DNA of 64,000 nt from the NCBI GenBank assembly GCA_037445735.1, contig JBBIJY010000009.1, positions 35,241-99,240 on the forward strand. The letters run 5' to 3'. A model generated the notes under the pieces. It searched no databases. It was not told the origin of the DNA and saw only the letters and a program-made list of their open reading frames with translations. Positions 8,887-64,000 of this stretch are shown in pieces. The position numbers and the translations under genes are program-made. How positions within the stretch are numbered: position 1 is the first letter of the stretch; the number at the start of each line of letters is the position of its first letter. Source of the DNA: Armatimonadota bacterium. Lineage in GTDB: Bacteria; Armatimonadota; Fimbriimonadia; Fimbriimonadales; GBS-DC.

Positions 8887-8945
8887 GGCTCACACTGTCG
8901 CATGGGCATCCTGCCCATAGCAAGCCCCCGAAAATCGGGCGAGGT

Positions 8946-9854
8946 TCACGCGCGCGGATGGGCGCGCTTGTAAACCTCCTTGAGGCGTTCAAGGTCGACC
9001 TGCGTATAGATTTGCGTGGTGGCGATGTCGCTGTGTCCGAGCAGCTCCTGCACGGTGCGCAAGTCGGCGCCGCCGCTGAGCAGATGTACGGCGAACGAGT
9101 GGCGCAGGGTGTGGGGCGAGATGTTTTTGGTGATGCCCGCACTGGCAGCGTAGAGCTTGACCTTGTTCCAGAAGGCGATTCGGCTCAGTTTGCCACCGCG
9201 CTCGTTGAGGAACACGCAGTCGGTTCCGTGCGGGCGGCGGTCGGGTTTGAGCAGTTTGGGTCGCGCTTCGCTGAGGTAGCGCTGGAGCCAGCCGGTGGCG
9301 TTCTCGGTGAGGGGCACGAGCCGCTCGCGCGACCGCTTGCCCTGCACGCGCAGCAGGCGGTCCGTTAGATTCAGATGCTCCATGCGCAGGTTCAGCAGTT
9401 CCGACACGCGCAGCCCTGTGGCGTACATCAGTTCCAGCATGGCGCGGTCGCGGATGCCGAGCGGGCTATCGAGCGGGGGCTGAAGCATCAGGCGGCGGAT
9501 TTCGCCTGGCGTGAGCGTGCTGGGCAGGGCGCGACGGGGCTTGACAGCGGTGAGCGCTTCGGGTGGCTCGTCGGTCAGCAGCCCGCGCCGATGGAGATAG
9601 CGCAGGAACGCGCGCGTCGCGCTCAGCTTGCGAGCAATGCTCGATTCGCTCATCGAACGGCGGCGCAGATAATAGAGGAAACCCTCCCAGAGGCTGGCGT
9701 CCCATTCGGCAGGCTCCAGCCGATCGGCGCGAACGAGATAATCGACAAACTGCGCCAGATCGGTGGCGTAGGCGTTCAGGGTGTGCGGCGAGAGTTGCCG
9801 CTCCCGCCGCAGATAGTCCAGAAAGCTGTCGACCCACTGCTCCCAGAGTGTCAT
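8946..9854 (-). CDS. xerD: Site-specific tyrosine recombinase XerD
   Basis: RDRAMLELMYATGLRVSEL, HTLRHSFAVHLL, LLGHSDIATTQIYT; homology begins at MTLWEQWVDSFLDYL. Confidence 0.88.
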   Translation of the reverse strand: MTLWEQWVDSFLDYLRRERQLSPHTLNAYATDLAQFVDYLVRADRLEPAEWDASLWEGFLYYLRRRSMSESSIARKLSATRAFLRYLHRRGLLTDEPPEALTAVKPRRALPSTLTPGEIRRLMLQPPLDSPLGIRDRAMLELMYATGLRVSELLNLRMEHLNLTDRLLRVQGKRSRERLVPLTENATGWLQRYLSEARPKLLKPDRRPHGTDCVFLNERGGKLSRIAFWNKVKLYAASAGITKNISPHTLRHSFAVHLLSGGADLRTVQELLGHSDIATTQIYTQVDLERLKEVYKRAHPRA

Positions 9855-9876
9855 CCCTCCCAGGTAGGCTACCAGC
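9848..9876 (-). CRISPR. Solitary degenerate CRISPR-type repeat containing the xerD ATG
   Basis: GCTGGTAGCCTACCTGGGAGGGATGACAC matches the repeat at 62843-62872 at 24/30 positions (manual alignment) and follows a homologous leader. Confidence 0.6.
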
Positions 9877-10028
9877 CAACCCCTGTAGCGGGCAGGCGTG
9901 AACACCCACCCACGCAGAGGCATCTCCCTGAACCCCAGTCGAACCCCTCACCCGATTGCAGGGTTCACACGCTCCTTTGCCCCTTTGGCGTTTATACTAT
10001 ACTTCAGCGATGACGGTGAAGTCAAGGG
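9877..10028 (-). promoter_or_regulatory. Promoter + leader module upstream of xerD, homologous to the leader before the pdxT mini-array
   Basis: TTGACT (10025-10020) -18 nt- TATAGT (10001-9996); ~80% identical to 62634-62787 by hand alignment. Confidence 0.75.
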
Positions 10029-10058
10029 ATGTCCAAAGATGTCCAGAGAGAAGGCAAA

Positions 10059-10317
10059 CCCCTCACCCCAGCCCTCTCCCCCGCTGGGGGAGAGGGAGCA
10101 TCCGAACCCCTCTCCCCCGCCTGCGGAGAGGGAGCATCCGAACCCCTCTCCCCCGCGTGCGGGGGAGAGGGTACGGGTGAGGGGGCTATATCCTGCACGC
10201 CTGCAAGAAACCCCTCACCCCAGCCCTCTCCCCAGAGGGAAAGCTAACCCCTCACCCCTACCCTCTCCCCTGTGGGGAGAGGGAGAAATAACTCCCTCAC
10301 CCCAGAGGGGAGAGGGA
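10059..10317. repeat. Cluster of CCCTCTCCCC...GGGGAGAGGG palindromic REP-like units (family A)
   Basis: About six hairpin units, many with CCCCTCACCC arms. Confidence 0.9.
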
Positions 10318-10318
10318 G

Positions 10319-13300
10319 TTATTCGCCTTTTTCCCCCGCCTGGAGCGATTGGAGCGCTGTCAGCACGGTCAGGAGCGTCTCCAGCGGCTGGGCGGTGAGA
10401 GGCAGGCTCATCTTTTCGGGGCGCGTGCGGATAAAGGCAAACTGCCGCTGCAACGCCGTCTGCCAGCGCGCTTTCAGCCGCCGTTCAGGCTTGAAATCAA
10501 CTATCAGCCGATTGCCCTCTGCCTGCAGGCTGGCGGCGCCCACCGCATGCGCCAGAATGCGCACCTCCATTATGCGCAACAGGTTGCGCACGGTCGGCGG
10601 CAACTGCCCGTAGCGGTCGCGCAGCTCGCGCACGAGGTCTTTCAGCTCCTCGCGTGTGCGGCTGCCCGCGATGCGCTTGTAGTAGCCCAGCCGTTGCGCC
10701 ACATCGGGGATGTAGTCGGCGGGGATGTAGGCGTCCACTGGCAGCTGGGCAGGCGGCAGCTCCTCCTGCAGGGGCGTATCCAGCGACCAGTGCGTCTCCC
10801 CGTTGCGCAGGTGGCGGATGGCGTCGCGCAACATTGCCTGATAGAGTTCGAAGCCGACCATACGCATCGCGCCATGCTGTTCCTCACCCAGCAGGTTGCC
10901 CGCGCCGCGGATTTCGAGATCGCGCATCGCCAGCGCGAAGCCCGAACCCAGGTGGGAGAACTCCCTGAGCGCCTGCAGACGCTCCTCTGCCTTCTCGCTG
11001 AGCTTGCCCGCTTTGAACAGGAAATAGGCGTACGCCTGGCGGTCGCTGCGCCCGACGCGCCCGCGCAACTGATAGAGCTGCGCCAGCCCGAACCGCTCCG
11101 CGCCCTCCACAATCAGCGTGTTCACATTCGGCATATCCAGCCCGTTCTCGATAATCGTCGTGCTGACCAGCACATCGTAGCGGTGCTGATAGAAGTCCAG
11201 CACCGTCGCCTCCATTCGGGCGGCAGGCATCTGCCCGTGCGCGACCGCGATTCGGGCGCCGGGCACCAGTCGCTGGAGCCGCTCCGCCACATGCTGGATG
11301 CCCTGCACGCGCGGCACCACATAGAACACCTGCCCGTCGCGCTGGAGTTCACGCAGAATCGCCTCGCGCACTGTCCACTCCGTGTAGGGCAGAACATAGG
11401 TGCGGATAGGGAGCCGCCCCGGCGGCGGGTCGGTGATGAGGCTCATATCGCGGATCTCGGTGAGCGCCATATAGAGCGTGCGCGGGATGGGCGTCGCGCT
11501 CATCGTCAGCACATCGACCGCGCCACGCAACTGCTTGAACCGCTCCTTCTGCATCACGCCGAACCGCTGCTCCTCATCGATAATCACCAGCCCCAGATTG
11601 TGAAACTGCACATCTTTAGAGAGCAGGCGGTGCGTGCCGATGACCATATCGACGGCGCCCGTCTTCAGCCCGTGCAGGATGCGCCGCTGCTCGGCAGGCG
11701 TGATGAGCCGGCTCAACAGCGCAACCTGGATGCCGAACGGTTCGAACCGCTCGGTGAAGGTCTGCCAGTGTTGATACGCCAGCACGGTGGTGGGGCACAG
11801 CAGGGCGACCTGCCGACCCGACATGATGGCTTTGAAGGCGGCTCGCAGGGCGACCTCCGTTTTGCCGAAGCCCACATCGCCCACCAGCAGCCGATCCATA
11901 GGATGGGACGATTCCAGATCGCGCTTAACCTCCTGAATCGCCTGCAGCTGGCTGGGCGTTTCGAGGTATGGGAAGCCCGCCTCCATCTCCTGCTGCCAGG
12001 GTGTGTCGGGGTCGCAGGGCGGGCGGGTCGCCTTCTCGCGCAGGGCATAGAGGCGCACCAGCTCCTGCGCCACCTCCTTCGCCCTGCGGCGTGCCTGCGC
12101 CACGCGGCGCGTCCACAGCGCACTGTTGAGCCGATGGATTTCGGGCGGCTTCTCATCGGGCGCAATATATTTCTGGATGCGGTCTAACTGGTCTGTCGGC
12201 ACATAGATGCGGTCGGGGTGCGCGTATTCAATCAGCAGGTAATCGCGCCTGACCCCATCGCGCTCCAGCGTGGTCAGTCCGCGAAAGATGCCGATGCCGT
12301 GATAGAGATGTACCACATAGTCGCCGGGCTGGAGGTCCATAATGGAGGTGATGGGCACGCCCTCGTTGAATCGGCGGGGGGGCAGGCGCAGGCGATTGCG
12401 CTCGAACAGCTCCGCGTCGGTGATGAGCGCGAACCGCTGGCTGTCCCACACGAAGCCGCCGCCCAGATTGCCCCGCCAGAGCAGCAGCGGGCGCGACGCC
12501 GCATCGGTTTGGACTGCGGAAGCAGGGCTTCCGCACTCCATATCGGCGTCCGCGAAGGGTAGCTCCGCCTGGCGCAGGGCATGCTTCACCTGATTGGGGC
12601 GGTCGGTCGCGATAACAATCTGGTAGCCTGCTTCGTGCCAGCGGCGCAGGCAGTTCCAGAGGTCAGGCAGCCGCCCGCGTGTCGTCTCCAGCGAGCGTGT
12701 GCCAATCGGAACACCCCCCTCACCACTTAGCACCAGCGTGCGCGCATGCGAATCGAGCTTCTGAATCGGCTCCAGATAGGCGTCCGCCTGGAGCGGGATA
12801 ATATCGCCGCGCGATGCACGCGATTCCAGCGCCTGCTGGAGGTCGTCCATCAGCCGCTCGTATGCCATCTGCAGGCGGAGCGGCTCCTCCAGAATCAGCA
12901 CTGCATCGGCGGGCAGGTAGTCCAGCAGGCAGGCGCGTTCCGCCACCAGCCACGGCAGATAGAGTTCCAGTCGGTCAAACGGCGCGCCCTGCGACAGGGG
13001 ATGCAGGTCCGCCTCCAGATTTTCGCGCAGAACGGCTTGCAGCGCCTTCGGCTGGAGCGCGATCCGGGTTTCCCATTCGGCGCGGATGCGTTCGGCAAGC
13101 TCCGGATTGCCCATCGGCACCTCGCGGGCGGGCGGGATGCGCACCACGCGCAGGCTGGCGACCGAGCGCTGCGTGGCGGGGTCAAAACGGCGGAGGCTGA
13201 CAATCTCGTCGCCGAAGAACTCGATGCGCACAGGCGCGTTCGCACCCATCGGGAACACATCCACAATTCCGCCCCGCCGCGCGAACTGACCTGGCAACCG

Positions 13301-13987
13301 CACTGGTTCCTGATGCTCATAACCGCTCACCATCAGCTGCTGGATGAGCGCGTCAGGGGAAATGAATGGCTGGGGCGTCCCGCCCCGCAATGCCCCCTCA
13401 CCCGTACCCTCTCCCCCGCTGGGGGAGAGGGGTTCAGTTGCTCCCTCTCCCCTCTGGGGAGAGGGCTGGGGTGAGGGGTTTCCTGCAAGCCTGCGCCCCA
13501 CAGCCCCCTCACCCGTACCCTCTCCCCCGCTGGGGGAGAGGGGTTCGGACGCTTCCTCGCCATCCTCAACGGTGGCGAGGGCTAACAGCAATTGTTCAAA
13601 CATCGCGGGGGGCATCGTGCGTTGCAGGGCGGCGGCAAGCGGAGCAATCACGATGACCGATTCGCCCCGATAGAGCGCCCGCAGCGCGCGCACCCGCTCA
13701 TGCAGAACCTCCAGCTCCACTCCCGTCGGCTCCATCACGGGCGTCAACCCTGCTGGCACACGCACCAGCCGCGATTCAGGGACGCCGAGCCGCAGCAGGA
13801 TCGCCAGCCACTGCTCGGCGCGCTCCAGCGAAGGGGTCAGAATCAGCGCAGGGGCTTGCTGGTCAGCCATCAGCGCTGCTGTCAGCACAGGCGCCGACTC
13901 CGAACACACCTCGCGCCACACCAGCGGACGTCCCCCATCCCAGTCAGGCAATCCACCCCGCAACGCCTGTAGCCAGACGGGCAACAT
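10319..13987 (-). CDS. mfd: Transcription-repair coupling factor Mfd
   Basis: [44 protein letters not shown]-terminus. Confidence 0.97.
12508..12542. repeat. Family B palindrome in-frame within mfd
   Basis: TGGACTGCGGAAGC-agg-GCTTCCGCACTCCA; encodes [12 protein letters not shown]. Confidence 0.75.
13392..13550. repeat. Family A REP cluster in-frame within mfd
   Basis: Three hairpin units; encodes [14 protein letters not shown]...[13 protein letters not shown]...[14 protein letters not shown]. Confidence 0.9.
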
Positions 13988-62633: not shown

Positions 62634-62787
62634 CCCTTGACTTCGCTGTCATCGATGGGGTATAGTACAAGCGCCATCGGGGCAAAGCTGTGCGTGCACC
62701 TTGACAATCGGGCGAAGGGTCCGATTGGAGTTCAGAGCTGTGCCTCTGAGCGGGTGGGCGTTCGCGCCTGCCCGCTGCAGGGGGTTG
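62634..62787 (+). promoter_or_regulatory. Promoter + putative CRISPR leader
   Basis: TTGACT (62637) -18 nt- TATAGT (62661); hairpins; abuts the first repeat; homologous copy upstream of xerD. Confidence 0.7.
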
Positions 62788-62872
62788 GTTTGTAGCCTAC
62801 CTCTGAGGGATTGAAAGAATCGTTTGTAGCCTATTCGAGAAAGTTTGTAGCCTACCTCTGAGGGATTGAAAC
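62788..62872 (+). CRISPR. Orphan CRISPR mini-array (2 repeats, one aberrant 25-nt spacer)
   Basis: GTTTGTAGCCTACCTCTGAGGGATTGAAA(G/C) at 62788-62817 and 62843-62872; 30 bp, ATTGAAAC end typical of type I-B/III repeats. Confidence 0.78.
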
Positions 62873-63435
62873 TCGGCGTACTGGCGTTGCAGGGCGATTT
62901 CGAGAAACACGCGGCGATGCTGGAGCGCATCGGCGTCGACTGGCGCGAGGTGCGCAAGGTCGCCGATCTCCACTCCGTCGACGCGCTGATTATCCCCGGC
63001 GGCGAAAGCACCACCATCGGGCGGCTGATGGCACGCTATGGACTCGATACCGCCATCCGCGAGCGGGCACAACAGGGCATGCCCATCTACGGCACCTGCG
63101 CTGGCATGATCCTGCTGGCAAAAGAGATTGCCGGCAGCCAGCAGGAACGGCTGGGGCTGATGGATATTGAGGTTATCCGCAACGCCTTCGGCAGCCAGAT
63201 CGAAAGCTTCGAAGCCGACCTGCCCTTCAAACCACTGGGCGACCGCCCTGTGCGAGCGGTTTTCATCCGTGCGCCTGTCGTGAGCCGCGCGGGCGCCCGT
63301 GTGGAGGTGTTGAGCGAGTTTGACGGCAAAATCGTGGCGGTTCAGCAGGGCAAGCTGCTGGCGACGGCGTTCCACCCGGAGCTGACCGACGACGAGCGCG
63401 TTCACCGCTACTTTTTAAGCCTGCTGACCCGATAA
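62866..63435 (+). CDS. pdxT: PLP synthase glutaminase subunit
   Basis: GVLALQG, PGGESTT, GTCAG, FHPEL; TTG start inside repeat 2. Confidence 0.96.
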   Translation: MKLGVLALQGDFEKHAAMLERIGVDWREVRKVADLHSVDALIIPGGESTTIGRLMARYGLDTAIRERAQQGMPIYGTCAGMILLAKEIAGSQQERLGLMDIEVIRNAFGSQIESFEADLPFKPLGDRPVRAVFIRAPVVSRAGARVEVLSEFDGKIVAVQQGKLLATAFHPELTDDERVHRYFLSLLTR

Positions 63436-63438
63436 AAA

Positions 63439-63516
63439 TGGTCGGGGCGCCCGGATTCGAACCGGGGACCTCCTGCACCCAAAGCAGGCGCGCTAACCAT
63501 GCTGCGCTACGCCCCG
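63439..63516 (-). tRNA. tRNA-Pro (TGG)
   Basis: CGGGGCG acceptor stem, CCTGC-TTTGGGT-GCAGG arm, GTTCGAATC, CCA. Confidence 0.95.
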
Positions 63517-63534
63517 ACGCTCCTGATTATACCT

Positions 63535-63945
63535 TAGCTGGCTCCGGGCGAGTGTGAGCGTGGTTTGCGCTGCATCGAGCGGCTGATGCGACACATAGCC
63601 CTTCTCGTGCAGGGATTGGACACGCTCATAGTTGCGCTGGGCTTCCTGCAGGCGGGCTTCGGCGTCGCGCACGGCGTTCGCCACCTCGATGCGCTCCTGC
63701 GGGTGCTTCACCGGCTCCAGCATGCGAAGGTTCTCCTGTGCGCTCTGATAGGCGGCTTCGGCGGCACGGAGGGCAGCCTATGTGAGCGCGGACTGCGCTT
63801 TCGGCTCGCGCTCCATCGGCTCCACGCGCAGCTGCGCCTGACGCACGGCGAGGCGAGCCTCTTTCGCCTGCATCTAGAGTGCAAGTTGCGCCTGTGCGGT
63901 GCTGAGTCGCGCCGATTCGACCGGCGCACGGCCCTGCTCCACCTG
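63535..63945 (-). pseudogene. Degenerate HlyD/efflux adaptor-like coiled-coil fragment
   Basis: One frame reads ...AQENL...EAQRNYERVQSLHEKGYVS..LDAAQ with in-frame TAGs at 63874-63876 and 63778-63780. Confidence 0.6.
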
Positions 63946-64000
63946 TCACCAATCCAACCACAACACCTCGTATCCACACAACCCGATTGCCGTCGATCAC

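What the first reader, a model, noticed from the sequence alone, without database searches (positions are those of the whole stretch)
9848..10028. Second, diverged copy of the same promoter-leader-repeat module in front of xerD, again ending on the start codon
Seen: the minus strand of 10028-9848 aligns end to end with 62634-62817 at about 80% identity (hand count ~31 differences in ~154 bp of leader). The -35 and -10 hexamers and the 18-nt spacing are identical. It ends in a degenerate repeat GCTGGTAGCCTACCTGGGAGGG-ATG-ACAC whose ATG is the xerD start, where the pdxT copy has ATTGAAAC. The same geometry at two unrelated genes 53 kb apart argues against chance. Inference: a dispersed family of CRISPR-derived expression cassettes, spread either by selection (a regulon) or by repeated leader-repeat insertion at SD/start-like sequences that resemble the repeat 3' end. 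I know of no description of such a system.
Basis: partly seen in the sequence, partly recalled or inferred. Interest (0 to 1): 0.93.

Follow-up and report, generated by a model that had tools for sequence, protein, structure and literature searches.

The report
CRISPR leader-repeat scar driving xerD
The DNA in front of the recombinase gene xerD is a fossil copy of this bacterium's CRISPR leader and one decayed repeat, most likely a scar from an old attack of the CRISPR system on its own chromosome, and it now supplies the gene's start codon and probably its promoter.

Summary
Window 10028-9848 (minus strand) is an 80% identical paralogue of the CRISPR leader plus one decayed repeat. Its ATG is the xerD start, and an independent assembly spans the junction.

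The module is CRISPR-derived and belongs to a dispersed family: 8 tracts plus one remnant in this 2.8-Mb draft, and more in relatives. It is not a regulon, and it is not aimed at SD/start-like sites. Only 2 of 8 copies sit on a start codon.

All the tracts share one feature. The host DNA after the repeat begins exactly where relatives with the "empty" site have CCN. This holds for 10 of 11 assessable junctions or spacers, against a CC background of 0.079. CCN is a documented type I-B PAM, and the genome has a I-B cas operon. In 4 cases, 528-817 bp on the PAM side were replaced in situ by array DNA (33-377 bp).

My reading is that these are autoimmunity scars. A self-derived spacer led to Cas3 damage, and repair was templated on the array through the spacer. 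The repeat's in-frame TTG (now ATG) and the leader promoter rescued xerD and pdxT.

For xerD itself the PAM evidence is weaker. I found no description of this in print.

The parts
8946..9854 (-). xerD coding sequence (302 aa plus stop). The start ATG 9854-9852 lies inside the repeat remnant.
   Evidence: ORF list. NCBIfam TIGR02225 XerD equivalog scores 350.7 bits against a cut-off of 329.6. Orthologues were found in 5 of 5 relatives searched.
9848..9876 (-). Decayed CRISPR repeat (29 nt, GCTGGTAGCCTACCTGGGAGGGATGACAC). Host DNA starts at 9847.
   Evidence: Ungapped scan gives 9 mismatches to the 30-nt repeat. With one gap there are 6 differences (my reading). A related strain's contigs leave the sequence at 9845.
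9877..10028 (-). Leader-derived tract, 80% identical to the genome's main CRISPR leader. -35 TTGACT at 10025-10020, -10 TATAGT at 10001-9996. The box CCTTGACAATCGG, shared by most of the family leaders I collected, is decayed here to CCCTGCAATCGG.
9921..9923 (-). Alternative in-frame ATG inside the leader tract. It would add 23 residues encoded by leader and repeat.
   Evidence: ORF 8946..9923. The XerD model aligns from residue 10 of the shorter form.
10060..10310 (.). Cluster of G/C-rich palindromic repeats between mfd and the module. A terminator-like hairpin lies at 10309-10294 (minus strand).
   Evidence: Sequence. Very high summed depth and many joints show a dispersed repeat. Terminator-like site. 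The BoxC-type label comes from earlier scan notes and was not tested here.
10319..13987 (-). mfd, the gene upstream on the same strand. This adjacency to xerD was not seen in any of the 4 relatives whose mfd downstream region I read.
62634..62787 (+). Sister copy: leader tract between a remnant of a gene (Uma2-like by my reading) after pdxS and pdxT. It is 100% identical to the leader on contig C45.
62788..62872 (+). Mini-array of the sister copy. It consists of repeat 62788-62817, 25 odd bases 62818-62842 (AATC, the first 12 nt of a repeat, then 9 nt equal to positions 27-35 of the pdxT flank), and repeat 62843-62872.
   Evidence: Rfam CRISPR-DR2 matches 62843-62872.
62866..63435 (+). pdxT. 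Its TTG start lies at repeat positions 24-26 and the host DNA starts at 62873.
   Evidence: The empty site in G002 reads ATGACCA|TCGGTGTACTGG.
63944..64000 (+). Start of the next array-derived tract. The window (contig) end overlaps the end of contig C45 by about 55 nt. C45 continues into an identical leader, 3 repeats and a PBP_like_2 gene.
   Evidence: Synteny with G002 contig C8.

Best explanation
**What it is (shown).** The stretch is a fossil copy of a CRISPR leader, promoter included, plus one decayed repeat of this genome's type I-B system. It is joined base-exactly to the 5' end of xerD. It is one of 8 array-derived tracts scattered in this genome. Three nearer relatives (G001, G002, G003) begin xerD differently; two of them carry CCN at the junction and G002 has only what looks like a short repeat-end remnant there.

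**How it arose (inferred from the family; weaker for xerD itself).**
1. The array acquired a spacer from the first codons of xerD, next to a CCN PAM.
2. Cascade-Cas3 attacked the chromosome, and the DNA on the PAM side was lost, including the native start codon and upstream region.
3. The break was repaired by copying from the CRISPR array. Repair was primed by the roughly 36-bp spacer/protospacer identity and ran leaderwards through the repeat and then the leader. The far end was joined illegitimately.
4. The PAM is now replaced by the repeat's 3' end, which is how arrays themselves are exempt from targeting, so the cell escaped.

**How it works now (partly shown).** The repeat end TTGAAAC put a TTG in frame with xerD (TTG AAA C|TC TGG GAG). 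Loss of one T made it ATG. Either this ATG or the ATG 23 codons upstream must start XerD, and both lie in the CRISPR-derived tract. The leader's TTGACT-18-TATAGT promoter most likely transcribes xerD, because a terminator-like hairpin follows mfd. Promoter use is inferred.
For: **Homology and reality of the junction**
-; the X1 contig covers 8900-10118 with 0 differences.

**Lineage specificity**
- 0 of 5 relatives have the module before xerD.
- A roughly 96% identical strain in runs X2-X4 leaves the sequence at 9845 into the G002-type upstream.

**System present**
- A cas6, cas7 (DevR), cas3, cas4, cas1b gene cluster lies on contig C2. Cas1b scores 450 bits against a cut-off of 304.

**PAM signature**
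- CC sits at -3,-2 of the empty site in 10 of 11 assessable junctions or spacers:
  - pdxT: CCA/CCG/CCG
  - PBP_like_2 gene: CCT
  - C18: CCA
  - anmK: CCC/CCA/CCT
  - C21: CCG/CCG/CCC
  - C10: CCG/CCA, with G001 reading CTG
  - mlaD: CCA/CCA
  - G002:C27: CCG
  - xerD: CCT in G001 and CCC in G003
  - the internal spacer of the anmK mini-array (next item)
- The background CC frequency is 0.079.
- CCN is a documented I-B PAM (PMC8406132 abstract and passages; PMC8482600 Table 1).

**Direct self-spacer**
- The internal spacer of the anmK mini-array matches 28 of 36 bases of the anmK 5' part that G000 has lost. In G002 that site is preceded by CCT.
- The pdxT and PBP-gene scars each keep a truncated copy of the flank-derived spacer before the last repeat.

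**In-situ replacement**
- At pdxT, C18, anmK and C21 both flanks are syntenic with G002. There, 550, 817, 528 and 784 bp on the PAM side are replaced by 267, 33, 110 and 377 bp of array DNA. The array DNA is always ordered repeat, then spacer or leader, reading away from the junction.
- At the PBP_like_2 gene the junction site lies 1.47 kb from pdxT on G002 contig C8, as in G000.

**xerD-specific hints**
- G002 has GGGGTTGAAA directly before the same flank, 9 of 10 bases matching the repeat end.
- A promoter-like site in the module and a terminator-like site after mfd.

**Precedent**
- Recombination between spacers and their targets is reported for phages (Varble 2019, as summarised in PMC8616872, passage read).
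Against: **For xerD itself**
- The closest relative (G002) has AAA, not CCN, before the flank. The PAM fit rests on the more distant G001 and G003.
- The second flank base differs (TC versus TG).
- The left flank (mfd plus palindromic repeats) is not syntenic with any relative, so at least one further rearrangement is needed.
- The tract is 20% diverged from every leader found (best foreign hit 78%). No source array is known, and a 22-nt core of the decayed repeat has no exact match in 185,579 species genomes.

**For the family**
- One junction does not fit (G002:C28, after a truncated gene I take to be cas8b).
- Three fits needed 1-2 mismatched first flank bases (C10, mlaD, G002:C27).
- The PAM of this particular system was not determined independently. 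Spacers matched nothing in the genome, in the fetched loci or in viral contigs.
- All genomes are draft assemblies from metagenomes.
- The repair pathway is inferred from end products only.
- No RNA data exist for promoter use.
Confidence: 0.58

Rival explanations
1. Ordinary decayed orphan array. A small CRISPR array once sat downstream of mfd and decayed to a leader plus one repeat. An unrelated rearrangement, for example between the dispersed palindromic repeats, brought xerD next to it. The overlap with the start codon is chance plus selection.
For: The left flank is not syntenic, and palindromic repeats abut the module. The tract is old-looking: 20% diverged with a decayed repeat. G002, the closest relative, has no CCN at the site. 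Orphan arrays are common (PMC8616872, passage read).
Against: It does not explain why host DNA starts exactly at the repeat's last base, as in 7 other tracts. It does not explain why G001 and G003 have CCN there, or why G002 has a repeat-end-like GGGGTTGAAA at the same junction. The same codon phase as at pdxT (TTG AAA C|TC) would be a coincidence.
Confidence: 0.2
2. Integrase-made junctions. The same PAM-adjacent junctions were made directly by Cas4-Cas1-Cas2, without homologous recombination. For example, a half-site integration of a long, PAM-trimmed chromosomal end into the leader-proximal repeat could be resolved as a rearrangement.
For: The junctions lie exactly at PAM|protospacer position 1, the cut that the adaptation machinery makes. 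cas4 and cas1 are present. Two tracts (xerD, C10) join non-syntenic flanks.
Against: The 4 in-situ replacements with variable lengths of array DNA fit copying from a template better than integration into the array. So do the retained spacer copies before the last repeat. I found no such reaction described, but I did not search for it specifically.
Confidence: 0.1
3. First reader's model. A dedicated, selected family of CRISPR-derived expression cassettes (a regulon or mobile promoter) inserts at SD/start-like sequences resembling the repeat's 3' end.
For: 4 of 8 tracts point into a gene start within 65 nt on the same strand. The promoter hexamers are intact in the xerD copy. G002's xerD upstream GGGGTTGAAATG resembles the repeat end.
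Against: 4 of 8 tracts break genes or face gene 3' ends. The empty sites share CCN, not an SD/start motif. Tract lengths vary from a bare repeat to leader plus about 195 bp upstream. No tract is conserved beyond two sister species. The intact hexamers are weak evidence: at 80% identity, 12 unchanged bases are expected by chance about 7% of the time.
Confidence: 0.07
4. Assembly chimera. The assembler joined a leader-repeat-spacer to xerD because a self-targeting spacer equals the xerD 5' end.
For: The genome is a fragmented draft from a metagenome. Contigs break at arrays. A second strain coexists in sister samples.
Against: An independent assembly of X1 runs through 8900-10118 in one 10.5-kb contig at even depth, with no branch at the junction. 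The module is unique sequence. At the 4 in-situ sister sites both flanks are syntenic with G002, which a chimera cannot produce. One scar (mlaD) is shared by two separately assembled species.
Confidence: 0.03

Closest known systems
Orphan (isolated) CRISPR arrays and their leaders
   Same: A leader with promoter and a cognate repeat lie far from the cas operon. The cas genes are on contig C2 and the module is on C9.
   Different: There is one decayed repeat, no spacer, and the repeat is fused in frame to a housekeeping gene. Known orphan arrays are described as arrays, not as gene 5' ends (PMC8616872, passages read).
Solitary repeat units (SRUs) and mini-arrays of viruses and proviruses (Faure 2019 as cited in PMC8616872; Medvedeva 2019, PMC6858448, seen in a search listing only)
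   Same: Single or few host-like repeats lie outside arrays. Mini-arrays have one spacer and a truncated repeat.
   Different: Those lie in mobile elements and are proposed to act as decoys or in interviral conflict. The tracts here are chromosomal, sit at PAM-adjacent sites of host genes, and carry leader DNA.
Escape from CRISPR self-targeting (review PMC6990116, passages read; Vercoe 2013 and Stern 2010 as cited there and in PMC8616872)
   Same: The premise is the same: self-derived spacers are lethal, and survivors carry deletions or rearrangements at the target. G002 appears to have lost most of its cas operon, which is a listed outcome.
   Different: The routes listed in the passages I read are homology-directed repair from sister copies, end joining, PAM/protospacer mutation, spacer loss, cas loss and anti-CRISPRs. 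Copying repeat and leader into the target is not among them.
Recombination between spacers and their targets in phages (Varble 2019; paper not held, known to me from the passage in PMC8616872)
   Same: A spacer-length identity is enough for recombination that joins array DNA to target DNA.
   Different: There the partner is a phage genome and the outcome is transduction of CRISPR loci. Here the partner is the host chromosome and the outcome is a fixed scar and a gene fusion.
CRISPR repeat-like regulatory RNAs in cas loci (Shmakov et al. 2023 preprint, abstract start seen in the listing) and CreTA-type modules (recalled)
   Same: Stand-alone repeats give rise to cr-like RNAs with functions other than defence.
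   Different: Those lie inside CRISPR-cas loci and act as guides with partial matches to promoters. The xerD module is far from cas. Its 'guide' would be the xerD mRNA itself, and no regulatory pairing is evident.
Neo-CRISPR loci from off-target spacer integration (Nivala 2018; recalled, not read here)
   Same: CRISPR-like structures arise at new chromosomal places through the adaptation machinery.
   Different: Off-target integration duplicates a local pseudo-repeat around a new spacer. Here the canonical repeat and up to 377 bp of leader-side DNA were imported and host DNA was deleted.
   Same: One decaying host repeat sits exactly where a PAM used to be, read as a scar of immune escape by copying host array DNA.
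   Different: That case is a phage genome with a single instance. I did not check it.

Membership tests
CRISPR leader-repeat unit of this genome's type I-B arrays | Sequence homology to leaders that precede genuine arrays | tested here: met
   80% identity over about 175 nt, E 2.8e-39, to the main leader. 78% identity to the leader of a real array in G002:C26.
CRISPR leader-repeat unit of this genome's type I-B arrays | The leader is followed directly by the direct repeat | tested here: met
   The 29-nt remnant at 9876-9848 starts at the same leader junction (GGGGTTG|G). It has 6 differences to the repeat with one gap.
CRISPR leader-repeat unit of this genome's type I-B arrays | Repeat-spacer-repeat periodicity (an array) | tested here: not met
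   There is a single repeat remnant and xerD follows at once.
CRISPR leader-repeat unit of this genome's type I-B arrays | Conserved leader box CCTTGACAATCGG, shared by most of the leaders collected from the family | tested here: not met
   The box is decayed to CCCTGCAATCGG in the xerD copy. It is present, with at most one change, in 15 of the 16 full leaders listed.
Array-templated autoimmunity scar (class proposed here, not an established family) | The empty site in relatives has the PAM (CCN) directly before the flank | tested here: inconclusive
   For xerD, G001 reads CCT and G003 reads CCC, but the closest relative G002 reads AAA preceded by a repeat-end-like GGGGTTGAAA. For the family, 10 of 11 fit.
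Array-templated autoimmunity scar (class proposed here, not an established family) | Host DNA on the PAM side is replaced in situ by array DNA ordered repeat, then leader | tested here: inconclusive
   The order repeat then leader is met. The native start and upstream region are gone. The left flank is not syntenic, so in-situ replacement cannot be shown for xerD. It is met at 4 sister sites.
Array-templated autoimmunity scar (class proposed here, not an established family) | A type I interference and adaptation module is present in the lineage | tested here: met
   cas6, cas7, cas3, cas4 and cas1b lie on C2. cas8b, cas5 and cas2 were not identified by any model.
Known cis-regulatory RNA or riboswitch (Rfam) | Match to a curated covariance model | tested here: not met
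   There was no match in 9750-10100 at E<=1. At gathering score the window yields only 2 tRNAs and CRISPR-DR2 at 62843-62872.
Solitary repeat unit / mini-array | Single host-like repeat outside an array | tested here: met
Solitary repeat unit / mini-array | Location in a virus, provirus or other mobile element | not tested
   The neighbours are mfd and xerD and nothing phage-like was noticed, but no dedicated search was run.
Neo-CRISPR from off-target integration | Duplication of a local pseudo-repeat flanking a newly integrated spacer | tested here: not met
   There is no duplication at the junction. The repeat is the canonical family and the leader DNA is imported.

The most novel reading that the evidence does not exclude
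Array-templated repair of self-targeted chromosomal sites is a general, undescribed way out of type I CRISPR autoimmunity.
- It leaves repeat-for-PAM scars.
- It seeds new leader-repeat units and mini-arrays around the genome.
- It deletes or breaks genes on the PAM side.
- When the hit falls in the first codons of a needed gene, it rewires that gene onto a CRISPR leader promoter with a repeat-encoded start codon.

By recalled knowledge, Cas6 cuts 8 nt before the repeat end. If so, Cas6 cleavage would release xerD and pdxT mRNAs that begin one base before their start codon. That would tie expression of housekeeping genes to the CRISPR machinery.
Probability: 0.4. Interest if true: 0.9.

Novelty: new variant of a known kind. 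Interest (0 to 1): 0.8.

Why it matters
If the reading is right, solitary CRISPR repeats and orphan leaders in chromosomes can be read as dated records of past autoimmunity. Each would name the gene that was hit, the PAM used, and the array that served as template.

That would give a way to measure how often CRISPR systems turn on their hosts, a long-standing open question about the cost of CRISPR. It would show CRISPR as a source of genome rearrangement: this 2.8-Mb genome carries 8 such tracts. It would also show CRISPR as a source of new promoters and start codons. Finally, it offers an origin for the many small arrays with their own leaders seen in this group, and perhaps for solitary repeats in viruses.

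The idea can be tested directly. One test is a survey for the cognate PAM at the empty sites of relatives. Another is a self-targeting experiment in a tractable type I-B host.

Tried and rejected
**Independent PAM from real spacers**
- I BLASTed 55 distinct spacers from G000 and relatives' loci against the genome and all fetched loci. Only the anmK self-match came out.
- I looked for two G000 spacer cores in viral contigs: 0 hits each.
- I searched a 20-spacer array of G001 against 29 family genomes. It only aligned array to array through the repeats.

**Source of the xerD-type leader or repeat**
- The 22-nt core of the decayed repeat gave 0 exact hits in genome contigs.
- The best foreign leader match among 41 relatives was 78%.

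**More junctions from G001**
- I fetched 5 mini-array loci. The flanks are too diverged from G000 to read the empty site: 4 were aligned without a clear answer, and for 1 the match starts only 507 nt from the junction.
- Two G002 solitary units could not be assessed because their flanks are absent from G000.

**Expression**
- No RNA holder is listed for this stretch.

**Reconstructing the mfd/xerD rearrangement**
- The partner ends on C8 and C3 carry no CRISPR sequence, so a simple reciprocal exchange with an array is not supported.

**Literature**
- Searches found no paper that describes repeat or leader copies at chromosomal self-targets.
- T4 'minihomology' escape (PMC8262927, abstract read) is deletion only.
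- PMC10608574 merely cites Varble.
- The Varble paper itself is not held.
- Supplements are closed, so PAM tables and escape-mutant sequences in supplements were not seen.

**Considered and dropped**
- A known riboswitch or leader RNA.
- An IS end. I saw no inverted repeat or transposase in my reading, but this was not formally tested.
Full report
**1. The observation**

Read on the minus strand, window 10028-9848 is CCCTTGACTTC...TATAGT...GGGGTTG followed by GCTGGTAGCCTACCTGGGAGGGATGACAC and then TCTGGGAGCAG.... It aligns with 62634-62817:
- mean column identity 79%;
- 80% identity over 178 of 184 query bases, E 2.8e-39, in a search of the whole genome;
- 80% in the reciprocal search.

The consensus scan finds TTGACT-18-TATAGT at 10025 to 9996 as the only promoter-like site in 9700-10400, against 0.1 expected. 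The pdxT copy has the same hexamers and spacing.

The ATG at 9854-9852 opens a 302-aa protein that passes the XerD equivalog cut-off (350.7 vs 329.6 bits). An in-frame ATG at 9923, also inside the module, is the only alternative start.

No Rfam family matches, either at gathering score or at E<=1.

The junction is not an assembly artefact. A 10,515-nt contig from an independent assembly of run X1 covers 8900-10118 with 0 differences, and the module is unique sequence in the genome.

**2. What the module is related to**

The window is contig C9:35241-99240 of a 2.78-Mb draft in 59 contigs. Run metadata label the holding runs as subsurface metagenome. Earlier notes of this scan call the organism Armatimonadota; I did not test that.

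The 30-nt repeat GTTTGTAGCCTACCTCTGAGGGATTGAAAC matches Rfam CRISPR-DR2. It occurs in arrays at contig ends (C20, C41) and in several short or single units.

The leader occurs in these places:
- before pdxT;
- 100% identical on C45, twice, once cut by the contig end;
- at 84% on C21;
- at 80% before xerD;
- as a 3' half at 74% on C10;
- as promoter only, plus a repeat, on C13.

Leaders in G002, G001, G003, G011 and others precede real arrays. They share the promoter, a box CCTTGACAATCGG, a hairpin, and GGTTGG at the repeat junction. The box is decayed in the xerD copy.

A cas gene cluster lies on C2: cas6, an unnamed gene, cas7/DevR, an unnamed gene, cas3, cas4, and type I-B cas1b.

**3. The xerD junction in relatives**

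xerD orthologues were found in 5 of 5 relatives searched, and none has the module.

In G002 (97% protein identity, about 96% DNA identity) and in G003, the upstream neighbour is another gene. Its G000 orthologue sits on C8.
- G002 reads ...GTTTCAACCCGTTAAGGGGTTGAAATG|TGGGAGCAG.
- G000 reads ...GGGAGGGATGACACTC|TGGGAGCAG.

Contigs of a G002-like strain in runs X2-X4 cover xerD up to 9845 and then continue into the G002-type upstream.

The sequence downstream of mfd differs in all 4 relatives I looked at. The left side of the module is therefore a rearrangement point too.

**4. The family gives the key**

For each place where a repeat abuts host DNA, I looked up the 'empty' site in relatives. 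Homology resumes at, or within 2 bases of, the base after the repeat. The relative has CCN immediately before it.

| Junction or spacer | Empty-site reading |
|---|---|
| pdxT | CCA (G002), CCG, CCG |
| PBP_like_2 (PstS-type) gene on C45 | CCT |
| Broken gene on C18 | CCA |
| anmK | CCC, CCA, CCT |
| C21 | CCG, CCG, CCC |
| C10 | CCG, CCA; G001 reads CTG |
| MlaD-domain gene on C13 | CCA, CCA; G002 shares this scar |
| G002:C27 unit | CCG in G000 |
| xerD | CCT (G001), CCC (G003) |
| Internal spacer of the anmK mini-array | CCT in G002 |
| G002:C28, after a truncated gene I take to be cas8b | no CC |

That is 10 of 11 assessable cases. Three fits (C10, mlaD, G002:C27) accept 1-2 mismatched first flank bases.

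The CC dinucleotide frequency in the genome is 0.079.

Seven further junctions could not be assessed: two in G002 whose flanks are absent from G000, and five in G001 whose flanks are too diverged.

CCN is a documented 5' PAM of type I-B systems:
- In C. difficile, 96% of plasmid-derived new spacers came from CCN sites, and the paper cites a CCN motif in Pyrococcus furiosus I-B (PMC8406132, abstract and passages).
- CCA/CCN/CCT are listed for I-B repeat clusters (PMC8482600, Table 1).

**5. Evidence that self-derived spacers were involved**

The anmK tract is repeat, 36-nt spacer, repeat. Its spacer matches 28 of 36 bases of the anmK 5' part that G000 has lost. In G002 that site lies about 270 bp upstream of the junction site, on the same strand, after CCT.

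In the pdxT tract, the 9 bases before the last repeat equal positions 27-35 of the pdxT flank.

In the PBP-gene tract, the 21-nt 'spacer' before the last repeat contains 17 bases identical to positions 20-36 of the flank. Both look like remains of a spacer taken from the very site that now follows the repeat.

**6. What happened to the host DNA**

At four sites both flanks are syntenic with G002, and DNA on the PAM side was replaced by array DNA.

| Site | Host DNA lost | Array DNA gained | Content of the array DNA |
|---|---|---|---|
| C18 | 817 bp | 33 bp | 3 nt plus repeat |
| anmK | 528 bp | 110 bp | repeat-spacer-repeat plus 14 nt at the left junction that also occur, with one change, in G002 |
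| pdxT | 550 bp | 267 bp | 27-nt filler, leader, repeats |
| C21 | 784 bp | 377 bp | about 195 bp upstream of leader, leader, repeat |

The PBP-gene site lies 1.47 kb from pdxT in G002, as in G000. There the end of contig C9 overlaps the end of C45 by about 55 nt. The two neighbouring tracts have 100% identical leaders.

Pfam confirms the genes: PBP_like_2, MlaD, and an AnmK that lacks profile positions 1-125.

The array-derived DNA always reads repeat, then spacer or leader, going away from the junction. This is what copying leaderwards from a spacer would give.

The lost DNA lies on the PAM side. By established knowledge, which I recall and did not test here, that is the direction in which Cas3 travels.

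**7. Proposed mechanism**

1. A spacer is acquired from the host chromosome next to CCN. This is inferred from the PAM signature and the spacer remains.
2. Cascade-Cas3 damages the site and DNA on the PAM side is lost. This is inferred.
3. The end that carries the protospacer uses the identical spacer in the array as template and copies the repeat and whatever lies beyond. The other end is joined without homology. This is inferred from the end products. Spacer-target recombination is known with phages (Varble 2019, via PMC8616872).
4. The PAM is now the repeat's 3' end, so the site is exempt from targeting. This follows from how arrays avoid self-targeting.

The retained partial spacers suggest more than one round, or out-of-register annealing at repeats. 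I cannot resolve this.

**8. Why two tracts end on a start codon**

The repeat ends GAGGGATTGAAAC.
- At pdxT the fusion reads TTG AAA C|TC GGC GTA (M K L G V L). G002 has ATG ACC A|TC GGT GTA.
- At xerD an intact repeat would give TTG AAA C|TC TGG GAG. The present ATG ACA C|TC TGG GAG differs by loss of one T and one A>C change.

Both junctions fall after the first base of a codon within the first four codons. Hits elsewhere in needed genes would not survive. Hits in dispensable DNA did survive: 2 broken genes, 2 gene 3' ends and 2 upstream regions.

No targeting to start-like sequence is needed. The 'expression cassette' is an accident kept by selection.

For xerD, the terminator-like hairpin after mfd and the intact hexamers make the leader promoter the likely promoter. 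There are no RNA data.

**9. Where xerD fits less well**

- G002 has AAA, not CCN, before the flank. It has GGGGTTGAAA there, which matches the repeat end at 9 of 10 bases. I read this as a remnant of the same scar, which would place the event before the G000/G002 split, with G002 later deleting the leader. This is an inference.
- The left flank is not syntenic.
- The tract is 20% diverged from all known leaders, and its repeat variant has no exact 22-nt core match in 185,579 species genomes.
- Leaders differ by about 15% even between G000 and G002. Two other scars (C21, C13) carry an older repeat variant (CCTGTGAGGG) that is used today by G001, G003 and G011. Scars may therefore be fossils of earlier arrays. 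This too is inference.

**10. Comparison with what is known**

The module works like a promoter plus a 5' leader donated by a CRISPR array. By homology it is a member of the leader-repeat family, but it is not an array.

The passages I read of the review of self-targeting outcomes (PMC6990116) list repair from sister copies, end joining, target or PAM mutation, spacer loss, cas loss and anti-CRISPRs. They do not list copying of array DNA into the target.

Six literature searches found no description of such chromosomal scars. The library lacks most subscription journals, and supplements were closed.

I did not check it.

**11. Verdict**

The regulon and start-site targeting ideas are rejected.
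- The best explanation is a CRISPR autoimmunity scar made by array-templated repair. It is well supported for the family and moderately supported for xerD.
- I rate it a new variant of known kinds (self-targeting escape; spacer-target recombination).

Noticed in passing
window 62634-62872 and 63944-64000 (continuing on contig C45:10926-10529): Two neighbouring array-derived tracts with 100% identical leaders lie before pdxT and before a PBP_like_2 gene. Their target sites are 1.47 kb apart in G002, on the same strand. This looks like a cluster of self-spacers, as in primed adaptation.
   Followed up: partly
window 62818-62842: The odd 25 bases between the two pdxT repeats are AATC, the first 12 nt of a repeat, then 9 nt equal to positions 27-35 of the pdxT flank. 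A single crossover does not explain this arrangement.
   Followed up: partly
window 63493-63977 (minus strand): Broken reading frames lie between tRNA-Pro and the next leader tract. In G002 the DNA just upstream of the PBP-gene site reads as the start of an opposite-strand gene. This may be DNA lost on the PAM side of that scar.
   Followed up: no
L108 (G002:C28:8526-8625): In G002 the cas locus stops about 700 bp into the gene after cas6. It is followed by repeat, 45 nt, repeat, and then DNA that in G000 lies 852 bp beyond an array. The sister species seems to have lost most of its cas genes.
   Followed up: partly
G000 contig C9:30247-30263 (outside the window): An 18-nt repeat 3' remnant (CCTCTGAGGGATTGAAAT) lies downstream of a pyrR-like gene. 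In G002 that gene is followed by a full leader and array.
   Followed up: partly
L075 (G002:C29, upstream of anmK): G002 has an extra 27 nt containing GAGGATTGAAAC upstream of anmK that G000 lacks. This may be another small repeat remnant.
   Followed up: no
L125-L128 (G001 contigs C53, C19, C15, C12): G001 has long arrays (143 repeat matches) and at least 5 small units of 2-3 repeats, 4 of them with their own full or partial leader. This suggests that leader-bearing mini-arrays are common in the genus.
   Followed up: partly
leaders (G000, G001, G002, G003, G007, G011, G021 loci): The box CCTTGACAATCGG, about 80 nt before the first repeat, is among the best conserved leader elements across genera. 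Its function is unknown; it could be an integration or regulator site.
   Followed up: no
window 10060-10310 and 13393-13543: Dispersed G/C-rich palindromic repeats lie between mfd and the module, with summed depth up to about 1,400. Earlier scan notes report them also inside mfd.
   Followed up: no
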